11,948 nucleotides of DNA from a virus (Duplodnaviria; Heunggongvirae; Uroviricota; Caudoviricetes), in the IMG/VR virus record IMGVR_UViG_2645727867_000006; one strand, given 5' to 3'. Below are positions 10,201 to 11,948 of this stretch, piece by piece (the stretch's first letter is position 1; the number at the start of each line of letters is the position of its first letter). The position numbers are program-made.

Positions 10201-11948
10201 ACCCGGCATGGCATACGACGGCAGAAACCCGGGCGATGAAGGCGACGTCGATCGCATACTGAAAACCATCTGACATAAGGCCGGAGAAATCCGGCTTTTT
10301 TTACGGGTCCTTTCCGGCATATGGACCCGTTACGGGGCGGCGACCTCGCGGTTTTTCGCTATTTATGAGCTTTTTCAGGGTGGTGGTGGTGGTTTTGTTG
10401 TTTGCTCTATCTTTATGAATAAAAAGGGAAATATAAAACCAATACACCAACCTGAAACCTTAACTAAGTGGGGATATTGATGAAATCGCACCTGATGAAC
10501 AAAAAAACTATGGCGCAAAGCTGCCGTGTAAGTGCGACAGCGTTCGACAAGTGGGGAGTGACTCCCGTTGAACGTAAAGGCCGCGAGGCTTTTTACGATG
10601 TTGCCAGCGTGATAGACAATCGGGTAAGCAATGCAATTAACCAGGTTGCAAACGACAAAGGCGAGATTGACGATGATGAACTCTTACGAGTCAGGATCAG
10701 ATTACTGACAGCGCAGGCGGAGGCACAGGAACTTAAAAACCATCGCGAGAGTGGCGACGTAATTGATACGGGGTTTTGTATGTACGCGCTTTCAAAGCTG
10801 GCGAGTCAGATTTCATCAATCATGGACAGCCTCCCGCTTACTATGCAAAGGAGCTTCCCACAGATGACCCCCGCTATGCTGGATGGACTTAAAAAGGAAG
10901 TGGTTAAAGCCTGTAATGCTTGCGCAGGAGTTGCTGACAACCTCCCGCAGATACTGGCTGATTACCTGATGGAAACTACCGGAGACGTACCGGAGAAGTT
11001 ACTACAGAAGAAAGGCGAGTAACAGACGCGCAATTATTGAACAAAAATGAGAAAGGATCTGATAATGGCATTTTCTGGCTAAAATGCCTCGTGTCAGATC
11101 CTTTCTTTTTTTAATATTTTCATTGTTAAACAGTCTGTTACAGAGAAGAAGAACGGATCTGACTTTTGCCGGAAAATTTTCATAAACAGATAAAAACCGC
11201 GAGGTCGCCGCCCCGTAACGGGCCATAATTCCAGGAAGGACCCGACGACACCAGACTATCAGAACGATGGGGGCACAATGACAGAAGCCGAACTACTGCG
11301 ATTAATCCGTCGCGTTGCCGGAATCAGCCAGCAGGCTGACGAACAGGCCACGCAGCCGGACAGCGTGACCGCCGAAAATTATGCGCGTGTGGTTGCTGAG
11401 GTGATGCGCCGTGATGGTATTGAGCTTAACGGCGTGGATATGCGCAACATACGAACCAGAGTCCTTGAGTTGCTGGCATACCGTCGCCGCGTGGAGATGT
11501 ATCGGGAGAAGGAGAAAATCACGTACCACTGGAAGAAGCCGGAGCGGTTACGGCGGTAACTCACTGAGATTAAAGCAAAGCTCAAAATTGCGCTGGCTGA
11601 ATGATCATTATGATTACTTATGTTTACGCAGATGATTAAGGCCTAAACCGTTGATTATTCCACAATCCCCCATTGGGGGAAGCTGGCGGTAACTGGTTGA
11701 ACTTAAAGCAAAGCGCAAAATTGCGCTGGCTGAATAATCATTATGATTACGCAGATGATTAAGGAATGACCGAAGGCGGAAATTCGCCTGTGGTTGATGG
11801 GGGAGTTGCAGATCTGCAACTCGACCATGAAATTACGGAAACTACCCGTAGTTTGGGTAGTAAGAGCAACACCCAGATTTTGGGGCTTACTCGTGATACC
11901 CAAATTTGGGGTATCGGCGGCAACCATAACGACTTTCGTTACGGTTGA

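What the first reader, a model, noticed from the sequence alone, without database searches (positions are those of the whole stretch)
11552..11948. About 90-bp direct repeats with dyad-symmetric sites, followed by a palindrome-dense stretch at the window edge
Two ~85%-identical copies (11552-11641, 11685-11763) each carry AGCGCAAAATTGCGCT-type and AATCATTATGATT palindromes, separated by a spacer with CCCCCATTGGGGG. Downstream lie a perfect 16-bp palindrome GTTGCAGATCTGCAAC (11806-11821) and paired ACCCA(G/A)ATTTGGGG elements. This architecture suggests multiple operator sites or a structured RNA controlling whatever lies to the right, rather than ordinary coding sequence.
Basis: seen in the sequence. 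Interest (0 to 1): 0.5.

Follow-up and report, generated by a model that had tools for sequence, protein, structure and literature searches.

The report
IHF-site/palindrome repeat array ending a PICI
The repeats are real, but they are the non-coding tail of an E. coli phage satellite: a variable stack of short modules, each pairing a consensus site for the DNA-bending protein IHF with a small palindrome, not operators for a gene to the right.

Summary
Two ~80-90-nt direct repeats lie 133 nt apart at ~90% identity, and the palindromes are where stated, give or take 1 nt. The stretch folds far better than shuffles (z -6.8 and -7.4).

The window is an EcCICFT073-type phage-inducible chromosomal island (PICI) inserted in caiT. 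The finding lies between its last gene (93 aa, phrog_1561) and attR. No gene follows on the right.

The two repeats belong to a module family found after this gene in every related island examined. There are 138 covariance-model hits (88 distinct) in 60 loci, three of them in CFT073 itself. Each 46-nt module has T-A-A-C-NNN-Y-T-G-A-T-W, the IHF consensus WATCARNNNNTTR, followed by a 5-7-bp palindrome. The palindrome centre is fixed but its arms differ (18 types). Module number, order and copy number vary between islands.

The right-hand 130 bp is a separate, optional insert. It is 75-93% conserved, shows no covariation, and its coding status is ambiguous.

Best reading: a satellite-private, BIME/RIP-like boundary array that binds IHF. 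Neither binding nor function has been tested. RNA hairpins, neutral recombination debris and small ORFs remain rivals. Modest interest.

The parts
11278..11559 (+). Last gene of the island (93 aa, PHROG 1561, function unknown). Its TAA stop codon forms the TAA of the first module.
   Evidence: PHROG hit at E 7.6e-57. 1028 homologues were found; all 120 listed are E. coli or Shigella. This gene is always followed by the array. The AF2 model is three helices but low confidence, pLDDT 63.
11555..11601 (+). U module 1. It has a degenerate IHF-like core (TAACTCACTGAGA, one mismatch to YAANNNNYTGATW) plus the palindrome AGCTCAAAATTGCGCT at 11579-11594. This is the left part of direct-repeat copy 1.
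   Evidence: Covariance model R1 scores 42.6 bits, E 8e-10. Coordinates.
11597..11641 (+). W module, copy 1: CTGAATGATCATTATGATTAC...GCAGATGATTAAGG. It contains a 10-nt tandem duplication at 11608-11627.
   Evidence: In relatives the W palindrome arms co-vary: AATCATTATGATT, GGTCATAATGACC, GGTGATAATCACC, GGTCATGATGACC.
11642..11687 (+). It has an exact IHF consensus at 11644-11656 (AATCAACGGTTTA on the - strand) and the palindrome CCCCCATTGGGGG at 11667-11679.
   Evidence: R1 scores 45.2 bits, E 1.6e-10. Exact WATCAANNNNTTR match.
11688..11734 (+). U module 3. It has a degenerate core (TAACTGGTTGAAC, two mismatches) plus the perfect palindrome AGCGCAAAATTGCGCT at 11712-11727. This is the left part of direct-repeat copy 2.
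   Evidence: R1 scores 44.1 bits, E 3.3e-10.
11730..11764 (+). W module, copy 2, with the palindrome AATCATTATGATT at 11736-11748.
11774..11789 (+). GC-rich hairpin AGGCGGAAATTCGCCT. In other islands a related hairpin (GGCGGAATTCCGCC) lies downstream of the X module, where it looks like a terminator.
11791..11920 (.). X module, an optional 130-bp insert carrying four palindromes (11805-11820, 11841-11861, 11870-11885, 11895-11915). It is 91-93% identical in islands with different integrase, replicase and capsid modules, and about 75% identical in a third type.
   Evidence: RNAalifold finds hairpins, but the covariation term is +0.4 and only 2 of 38 pairs changed on both sides.
11922..11946 (.). 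Z hairpin AACCATAACGACTTTCGTTACGGTT, an 11-bp stem with one A.C mismatch. It is conserved in relatives that lack X.
11703..11927 (-). Open reading frame of 74 aa on the minus strand with a hydrophobic C-terminus (…GHSLIICVIIMIIQPAQFCALL). It is an X-interrupted, in-frame version of a 23-26-aa hydrophobic ORF found in relatives. Its coding status is unproven.
   Evidence: Only 19 database proteins match, all E. coli and mostly partial calls. The codon test is ambiguous.
11766..11948 (+). 60-aa ORF. RefSeq annotates 11790-11948 as a hypothetical protein. A second + frame starting at the ATG at 11797 runs off the window and totals 83 aa in the source genome. Neither frame is supported.
   Evidence: Most RefSeq records annotate nothing here.

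Best explanation
The finding is the non-coding right-end spacer of an EcCICFT073-type phage-inducible chromosomal island (PICI). It lies between the island's last late-operon gene and its attachment-site arm.

Structure (shown). The spacer is a mosaic of short modules. The main one, here called U, is 46 nt long. It consists of a consensus binding site for the host DNA-bending protein IHF (TAAC-NNN-YTGATW, which is WATCARNNNNTTR on the other strand, with A/T-rich flanks). This is followed by a 5-7-bp-arm palindrome centred about 18 nt away. The window holds three U modules. That block occurs in one to three copies among close relatives.

Mechanism (inferred). IHF docks on each module and bends the DNA sharply. 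Together with the hairpin-capable palindromes, the co-oriented modules form a BIME/RIP-like boundary element at the 3' end of the late operon. This would act as a barrier to transcription and supercoiling and would protect the mRNA 3' end. It would separate the late genes and cos from attP and int in the excised circle, and from host DNA in the integrated state. Such a role tolerates variable module number.

Shown: location, anatomy, family membership, motif statistics and palindrome maintenance. Inferred: IHF occupancy and the boundary function.
For: Context:
- The window matches E. coli 94-3024 at 100%. The island (int through to the 93-aa gene) sits in caiT, and attR with the caiT 3' fragment follows about 300 bp after the window.
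- CFT073's EcCICFT073 has the same layout, with three U modules at 8651, 8705 and 8804 and none elsewhere in 49 kb.
- A 10.8-kb circular copy shows the order 93-aa gene, U, X, attP, int.

Module family:
- Model R1 finds three hits in the window at 42-45 bits. In the rest of the 28.7-kb genomic stretch it finds only a 20.9-bit hit at the island's replication origin.
- Across 60 loci it finds 138 hits (88 distinct), always on one strand within a locus.
- The length from the 93-aa gene's stop to the downstream conserved motif ranges from 168 to 734 nt, and module order is shuffled.

IHF motif:
- In the first alignment the invariant columns are T3, A4, A5, T11 and A13.
- Over the 88 distinct units the information content is 1.9-2.0 bits at TAA and TGA but 0.5-1.0 bits at the N positions, and the Y position is T in 52 units and C in 36.
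- WATCARNNNNTTR occurs 101 times in 25.3 kb of arrays, always in one orientation. Shuffles give a mean of 1.2 and a maximum of 5. The background over all loci is 0.39 per kb.
- The consensus and the A-tract requirement are taken from 10.1101/382655.

Palindromes:
- 77 of 88 distinct units have a palindrome of at least 5 bp at a fixed centre, against a mean of 13 (maximum 25) in shuffles. There are 18 arm types.
- The covariation score is 0.313 against 0.095 in shuffles, with 0 of 500 shuffles reaching it.

Copy number and analogy:
- L008 carries 2.3 copies of a 132-nt period at 96%.
Against: - IHF binding has not been measured.
- The two large repeats in this particular window carry degenerate cores (one and two mismatches). 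Only the middle module is an exact consensus match.
- The A/T tract is not placed exactly as in the lambda H' site.
- A palindrome of variable sequence next to an IHF site has no known protein partner.
- The fixed palindrome centre and strict co-orientation would also fit an RNA or single-strand role.
- The G.T versus A.C mismatch count gives no strand signal (5 versus 8), so DNA and RNA readings cannot be separated.
- Variable number and spacing (46, 48, 54, 68 nt) argue against any precise nucleoprotein architecture.
- The family was seen only in Escherichia and Shigella, so the sequences are closely related and inheritance inflates some counts.
Confidence: 0.4

Rival explanations
1. RNA-level element. 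The array is the 3' untranslated region of the late operon. Its small stem-loops act like REP hairpins, protecting against 3' exonucleases, pausing or terminating transcription, or being processed into small RNAs. On this view the IHF-like motif is incidental, or serves as an A/U-rich RNase E site.
For: - The modules start at the stop codon of the 93-aa gene and are always co-oriented with it.
- Stems keep their pairing while their sequence changes.
- No intrinsic terminator separates the gene from the array in the window.
- In other islands X is followed by a GC-rich hairpin and a T-rich tail.
- Even the gene variant that lacks a U module has a 17-bp palindrome over its stop codon.
Against: - Conservation in the flank follows the IHF consensus position by position, including the degenerate Y/R and N positions. 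An RNA reading does not predict this.
- Many palindromes are perfect to within one central base, leaving only 5-bp stems with triloops.
- There is no excess of G.U over A.C.
- There is no Rfam match.
- The X module shows no covariation.
Confidence: 0.25
2. Neutral recombination debris. The spacer next to the island's accessory-gene slot accumulates duplications, deletions and shuffled fragments through unequal crossing-over between short repeats. Palindromes persist through hairpin-templated repair rather than selection.
For: - Modules are extremely mosaic and array length ranges from 168 to 734 nt.
- The 132-133-nt block occurs in one to three copies.
- Copy 1 carries a 10-nt tandem duplication.
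- Insertions are flanked by 17-nt direct repeats such as ATGGTCATAATGACCAC.
- Cargo such as an Abi gene occupies the same slot in L035.
- The IHF cores of the window's two large repeats are degenerate.
Against: - The IHF consensus is enriched about 80-fold in a single orientation.
- 77 of 88 units keep a palindrome at one fixed centre through 18 arm types.
- At least one module or stop-codon palindrome is present in every island examined, including those with different int, rep and capsid modules.
Confidence: 0.18
3. Small protein genes are hidden in the right half. The candidates are a minus-strand hydrophobic peptide (74 aa here, 23-26 aa in relatives, possibly toxin-like) and a plus-strand ORF. 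On this view the palindromes are partly by-products of coding, or are mRNA structure.
For: - The minus ORF is open in all three X types, and X sits in frame inside the short ORF (MVA | X | LIICVIIM…).
- Indels between X types are 9 and 6 nt.
- Third codon positions carry 12 of 23 differences in the best frames.
- The short form M..MVCVVIMTIQP.TLIRIFR ends at a convergent terminator in relatives.
Against: - Non-synonymous changes exceed synonymous ones in every frame.
- Four of six frames are open in X, so openness carries little information.
- N- and C-termini differ between X types.
- Only 19 database proteins match the minus ORF, all E. coli and mostly partial calls.
- No Pfam or NCBIfam match.
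- RefSeq usually annotates nothing here.
- Copy 1 of the repeat is frameshifted.
Confidence: 0.12
4. One reading: an array of operators for the island's RHH, AlpA or PerC regulators, controlling a gene to the right. A related variant is a second cis-acting replication site like the P4 crr, which is two direct repeats carrying origin iterons.
For: - Dyad symmetry and direct repetition are present.
- The P4 crr consists of two ~120-bp direct repeats (my own knowledge, not checked here).
Against: - No gene follows on the right.
- The dyads differ from one another and between islands and do not recur near the regulatory genes.
- The origin iteron TGGGACRAC occurs 12 times between 7170 and 7459 and never in the finding.
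- The array is shared by islands with unrelated replicases.
Confidence: 0.03

Closest known systems
BIME-1 / RIP elements of E. coli (REP palindromes plus an IHF-binding linker)
   Same: Both are extragenic and lie just 3' of a stop codon. Both are mosaics of short palindromic units and a conserved motif carrying an IHF consensus. Number and arrangement vary from locus to locus. The proposed roles overlap: mRNA 3' protection, termination, topological barrier and IHF recruitment (PMC3333891).
   Different: The palindromes are much shorter (11-16 nt against 20-40 nt) and unrelated to the y/z REP sequences. There is no conserved GTAG foot. All units point the same way rather than alternating. The family is confined to the right end of phage satellites and is not spread over the chromosome: there are no hits in about 17 kb of host DNA in L001 or about 40 kb in CFT073.
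Right end of EcCICFT073, the model Gram-negative PICI
   Same: The gene order is the same: capsid, head decoration, Nu1/Rpp-like gene, lambda-type cos, 93-aa gene, array, attR. There are three U modules in the same position, and the L041 array sequence is identical. The window has two lambda-type cos sites, matching the cos1/cos2 pair reported in PMC6092414 and PMC6739421.
   Different: The insertion site differs (caiT here, next to phoQ in CFT073). The module set differs: the window has the duplicated U+W block and the X insert, and CFT073 has neither. A term search of the two papers found no mention of IHF or repeats.
IHF sites of phage lambda (H', H1, cos I1)
   Same: A 13-bp consensus with an A/T-rich tract in the other half, lying near att and cos.
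   Different: The lambda sites are single, precisely placed parts of the intasome or cosB. Here the sites are reiterated, variable in number and spacing, 170-400 bp from the integrase arm-type sites, and on the cosQ side of cos.
P4 crr (cis replication region)
   Same: Two direct repeats of about 100 nt in a satellite, far from the origin.
   Different: The crr repeats carry the same iterons as the origin. Here the origin iterons are absent, and the array is shared by islands with different replicases.

Membership tests
E. coli IHF binding site | 13-bp consensus WATCARNNNNTTR | tested here: met
   There is an exact match at 11644-11656. The other two window modules have one and two mismatches. 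The family profile is invariant at TAA and TGA and variable at the N positions. The consensus occurs 101 times in 25.3 kb of arrays against 1.2 in shuffles.
E. coli IHF binding site | [quoted passage not shown] | tested here: inconclusive
   Alignment columns 18-21 are T-rich and columns 25-28 are A-rich (RAAR). The spacing is not identical to that in lambda H'.
E. coli IHF binding site | Measured binding and bending by IHF | not testable with these tools
   This needs a gel shift, footprint or ChIP experiment.
REP/BIME (BIME-1, RIP) | REP units of the y/z type: 20-40-nt imperfect palindromes with a GTAG foot, in alternating orientation | tested here: not met
   The palindromes are 11-16 nt long with 18 unrelated arm types. 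All 138 units are co-oriented within a locus.
REP/BIME (BIME-1, RIP) | Hundreds of copies dispersed in intergenic regions of the chromosome | tested here: not met
   Model hits occur only at the satellite right end. In 28.7 kb of L001 the only other hit is one weak match at the origin, and there is none elsewhere in 49 kb of CFT073. There are at most six places per genome.
REP/BIME (BIME-1, RIP) | Mosaic of palindromes and a conserved linker carrying an IHF site, with copy number varying between loci | tested here: met
EcCICFT073-type PICI (context of the finding) | int, alpA, primase-replicase with an iteron origin, capsid and decoration genes, Nu1/Rpp-like gene, lambda-type cos, about 11 kb | tested here: met
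   Annotation; Pfam DUF927, PerC and Phage_Nu1; iterons at 7170-7459; cosN at 10335 and 11202; the same order in CFT073.
Operator array of a repressor | Repeated copies of one dyad placed over or upstream of a promoter of a downstream gene | tested here: not met
   The dyads differ from one another. No + strand promoter and no downstream gene is present.
P4 crr-like replication site | Direct repeats that carry the origin's iterons | tested here: not met
   TGGGACRAC is absent from 11552-11948.
Known RNA family (Rfam 15) | Score at or above the family's gathering threshold | tested here: not met
   Only C4 and isrK, at 3818-4003, reach threshold. The best match in the region is manA at 18 bits against a threshold of 55.
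Type I toxin-antitoxin | Small hydrophobic ORF plus an overlapping antisense RNA | tested here: inconclusive
   A hydrophobic minus-strand ORF exists. There is no clear promoter, ribosome-binding site or antisense partner, and no family match.

The most novel reading that the evidence does not exclude
The array is a previously undescribed, satellite-specific class of reiterated IHF-docking modules with an active role in the satellite's parasitism. One version is that it recruits or titrates IHF, which lambda-type helpers need at cosB and attP. Another is that it provides an IHF-dependent structure that controls excision, integration or packaging termination. A third is that it serves as the recombination substrate that swaps defence cargo at the neighbouring hotspot.
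Probability: 0.1. Interest if true: 0.6.

Novelty: new variant of a known kind. Interest (0 to 1): 0.33.

Why it matters
EcCICFT073-type islands are the model for Gram-negative phage satellites and carry anti-phage cargo next to this spacer. About a fifth of complete E. coli genomes carry the sequence (1055 of 5426). If the modules bind IHF, they add a host-factor-dependent boundary or architectural element to the satellite's right arm. They would also be a convenient marker of satellite ends. If they are debris, the result still warns against annotating the 52-60-aa 'hypothetical protein' here. It also shows how quickly this arm is reshuffled. In either case the element is readily testable in an existing genetic system, CFT073 with lambda or phi80 as helper.

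Tried and rejected
- **Known RNA families.** The Rfam gathering and E-value scans found nothing in the region.
- **Phage or plasmid origin.** blastn against 50,697 phage records found no match. Plasmids gave only satellite copies.
- **Genome-contig scan.** Using the 93-aa protein, it returned a single locus, from Shigella. Diversity outside Escherichia and Shigella therefore could not be sampled.
- **P4 crr or second origin.** Rejected, because the origin iterons are confined to 7170-7459.
- **cos or cosB role.** Rejected. The lambda-type cos elements lie at 10335 and at 11040-11260, and islands without that cos still carry the array.
- **Integrase arm sites.** The GGTGTAGTNA and TTGTTCG repeats lie 170-400 bp further right and on both attP arms. 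They are not in the finding.
- **RNA versus DNA by wobble asymmetry.** No signal: G.T 5 against A.C 8.
- **Coding tests.** The six-frame substitution analysis of the three X types was ambiguous. The minus ORF has only 19 database matches. Pfam and NCBIfam gave nothing.
- **Minus-strand repeat protein.** The IHF core translates as E-N-I-N/S-G-L. This was rejected because of in-frame stops and spacings that are not multiples of three.
- **Structure of the 93-aa protein.** The AF2 model had pLDDT 63 and pTM 0.37, too poor for a fold search, so none was run.
- **Fur box or XerCD dif resemblance of the W palindrome.** Considered by eye and dropped, because only the AT-rich variant resembles a Fur box.
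- **CRISPR leader-repeat mimicry.** An IHF site next to a palindrome, with one stem containing CGCCAGCGG, prompted the idea. It was dropped because only one of 18 stems fits.
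Full report
**1. Observation**

The region was read directly. The repeat finder reports 11552-11617 vs 11685-11750 at 89% identity and 11618-11641 vs 11741-11764 at 96%, with a spacing of 133 nt. A pairwise alignment shows 72 of 80 shared positions identical. Copy 1 has a 10-nt insertion, which TRF identifies as a local tandem duplication, TTATGATTAC x2, at 11608-11627.

The 16-bp perfect palindrome is at 11805-11820, one base left of the stated coordinates. A third ACCC…GGGT dyad lies at 11841-11861. The 397 nt fold much better than dinucleotide shuffles on both strands (z -6.77 and -7.39).

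**2. Where it sits**

The window is identical to E. coli 94-3024. Annotation of the surrounding 28.7 kb shows an ~11-kb island inserted in caiT. Its genes, in order, are:
- integrase and an AlpA-type regulator
- Ash and Icd-like genes, with C4/isrK RNAs (Rfam)
- a DUF927 primase-helicase and PerC
- major capsid and head-decoration genes
- a Nu1-like small terminase
- a 93-aa gene (PHROG 1561)

The finding starts at that gene's stop codon. About 300 bp after the window end come the attachment-site arm and the caiT 3' fragment.

The island is of the EcCICFT073 type. CFT073 itself shows the same order and the same kind of tail next to phoQ. The published description of EcCICFT073 includes capsid and decoration genes, two cos sites and lambda/phi80 helpers (PMC6092414 and PMC6739421), and this matches.

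A 10.8-kb circular record (L121) appears to be an excised copy. It shows that in the circle the tail is followed by attP and then int on the same strand. There is therefore no downstream gene in the integrated state.

**3. What the repeats are**

Pattern scans of IMG/VR and E. coli genome hits gave about 120 related loci. There are 49 distinct spacers between the 93-aa gene and a conserved downstream motif. Their lengths range from 168 to 734 nt, and they are built from a small vocabulary of modules in variable number and order.

The commonest module, U, is 46 nt. Its layout is SS-TAAC-NNN-YTGAT(A/T)-T-rich-CG-RAAA, then a short palindrome, then RRRYCGG.

A covariance model built from 41 units finds three units in the window, at 11555-11601, 11642-11687 and 11688-11734, scoring 42-45 bits. 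Elsewhere in 28.7 kb it finds only a 20.9-bit hit at the replication origin. It finds three units in CFT073 and none in the adjacent lambdoid prophage. Across 60 loci it finds 138 hits (88 distinct), always on one strand within a locus.

The 132-133-nt block is present 2.3 times in L008. Many E. coli matches cover the 397-nt query in only ~308 bp, split into two aligned pieces, which would fit a missing block, but I did not verify this in those genomes. This is recent copy-number variation.

**4. The conserved core is an IHF consensus**

Across the 88 distinct units the columns T-A-A and T-G-A carry 1.9-2.0 bits. The three to four columns between them carry 0.5-1.0 bits. The column before TGA is T in 52 units and C in 36, and never A or G. 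The next two columns are T and A/T.

Read on the other strand this is WATCARNNNNTTR, the IHF consensus, which is often accompanied by an A-tract in the other half-site (10.1101/382655). The degenerate positions of the motif are the degenerate positions of the consensus.

The consensus occurs 101 times in 25.3 kb of arrays and never in the opposite orientation. Shuffles give a mean of 1.2 and a maximum of 5. All loci together give 0.39 per kb. In the window only the middle unit is an exact match (11644-11656). The two large repeats carry cores with one and two mismatches.

**5. The palindromes**

In 77 of 88 distinct units a palindrome of at least 5 bp is centred 30.5-31.5 nt from the unit start. 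Shuffles give a mean of 13 and a maximum of 25. There are 18 different inner arm pairs, including CGCAA/TTGCG, CTCAA/TTGAG, CCCCA/TGGGG, CAGCC/GGCTG and TCGCC/GGCGA.

On the model-fitted alignment the covariation score is 0.313, against 0.095 in shuffles (0 of 500 reach it). Half-step shifts of the centre limit a single fixed register to 66% paired.

Symmetry is thus maintained while sequence is not. A fair count of mismatches gives G.T 5 and A.C 8. There is therefore no sign of pairing on one transcribed strand, and I cannot tell an RNA hairpin from a DNA-level palindrome.

**6. The right half (X)**

Positions 11791-11920 are an optional insert. It is 91-93% identical in islands with different integrases, replicases and capsid modules. 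One such island is integrated inside a prophage terL gene. It is about 75% identical in a third type that carries an Abi gene next to it.
- RNAalifold on ten variants predicts five hairpins. The covariation term is +0.4, and only 2 of 38 pairs changed on both sides.
- Six-frame substitution counts among the three types show more non-synonymous than synonymous codon changes in every frame. Two antisense-related frames have a mild excess of third-position changes, 12 of 23.
- The minus-strand frame is open in all types. X sits in frame inside a 23-26-aa hydrophobic ORF that exists uninterrupted in relatives.
- Only 19 proteins in the 5.8-billion-sequence database resemble the minus ORF, all E. 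coli and mostly partial calls. No profile library recognises any frame.

I treat coding as unproven. The RefSeq 'hypothetical protein' on the plus strand has no support.

**7. Mechanism**

The data fit best a satellite-private analogue of BIME-1/RIP elements. Those are extragenic mosaics of palindromes and an IHF-binding linker that vary in number between loci. They have been linked to mRNA 3' protection, termination, supercoil insulation and IHF recruitment (PMC3333891).

I propose that IHF occupies the modules and that the array acts as a boundary at the 3' end of the late operon. It would lie ahead of attP and int in the circle, and ahead of host DNA in the chromosome. Occupancy and function are inferences, and I put confidence at 0.4.

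The element fails the membership test for REP/BIME proper. It has no y/z REP sequence, no alternating orientation and no chromosome-wide dispersal.

**8. Rivals**

- **RNA 3'-UTR hairpins (0.25).** This explains the co-orientation and the stop-codon position but not the IHF-shaped conservation.
- **Neutral recombination debris (0.18).** This explains the mosaicism and the degenerate copies but not the 80-fold, single-orientation motif enrichment or the fixed-centre palindromes.
- **Hidden small ORFs (0.12).** See section 6.
- **Operators or a P4 crr-like site (0.03).** There is no downstream gene, the dyads are heterogeneous, and the origin iterons are absent.

**9. Verdict**

This is a real, non-random feature whose architecture has, as far as I could find, not been described. 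It is an elaboration of known kinds of element (IHF sites and extragenic palindromic mosaics). It was seen only in Escherichia and Shigella satellites, and no function has been demonstrated. Interest 0.33; novelty: new variant of a known kind.

Noticed in passing
window 10335-10346 (+) and 11202-11213 (-); R-like repeats at 11050-11062, 11094-11112 and 11150-11162; cosQ-like GGGTCCT (reverse complement) near 11240: There are two exact lambda cosN 12-mers (GGGCGGCGACCT) in inverted orientation flanking the Nu1-like gene. The right-hand one has three AGAAAGGATCTGA repeats in a cosB-like position. It also matches lambda-like phage cos regions at 73-83%. This corresponds to the cos1/cos2 pair reported for EcCICFT073.
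   Followed up: partly
window 7170-7459: This is the replication origin downstream of the DUF927 primase-helicase. It has 12 copies of the iteron TGGGACRAC in both orientations around an A/T-rich stretch. That stretch contains an exact IHF consensus at 7412-7424, and the U-module model gives a weak hit there (7383-7426, 20.9 bits).
   Followed up: yes
L001 3956-15055 (the island); window equivalent is L001 position minus 2801: Chi (GCTGGTGG) occurs 10 times in the ~11-kb island, in both orientations, against about 1 expected in the whole 28.7 kb. One copy (L001 14813-20, minus strand, just right of the window) is the conserved motif used to collect relatives. Many arrays carry one to three CCACCAGC. 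It might protect linear or rolling-circle satellite DNA from RecBCD.
   Followed up: partly
L002/L004 (E. coli 28RC1) and L035 (E. coli PKF4): Related satellites are integrated inside prophage genes. One splits a prophage large-terminase gene into N- and C-terminal fragments. Another abuts a truncated lambda-like gene E, with an Abi-family gene as cargo.
   Followed up: partly
L121 (NZ_CP148328.1, 10,790 bp circular 'plasmid'): This record appears to be an excised, circular satellite of this family deposited as a plasmid. It shows attP with GGTGTAGTNA-N-GGTGTAGTNA and TTGTTCG repeats on both arms.
   Followed up: partly
Relatives with the 'Y' module (e.g. L005 8520-8700, L049, L056); not in the window: Four GTGAC repeats at 10-bp phasing are followed by a canonical intrinsic terminator (GGATGACGTGGCCAACGTCATTTTTT). 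This terminator converges on a 23-26-aa hydrophobic minus-strand ORF (M..MVCVVIMTIQP.TLIRIFR). It could be a small toxin-like gene with an adjacent small RNA.
   Followed up: partly
L112 474-520, L114 170-216, L115 752-798 (metagenomic viral contigs): A U-like unit scoring 36-38 bits lies inside the C-terminal tail of an Arc-type ribbon-helix-helix gene on the opposite strand (…SELSENISGLGE…) in unrelated elements. The same frame of PICI U units reads …EVSENISGL…. Whether this reflects common origin or capture is unexplained.
   Followed up: no
window 3818-4003: isrK (66 bits) and C4 antisense RNA (77.6 bits) lie side by side upstream of the Icd-like gene. This is the P4/P1-type immunity RNA arrangement, here inside a PICI-type island.
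   Followed up: no
L118 ~12000-12700: Two paralogues of the 93-aa gene lie in tandem, separated by a U-module array. The array therefore can precede a copy of the gene as well as follow one.
   Followed up: no
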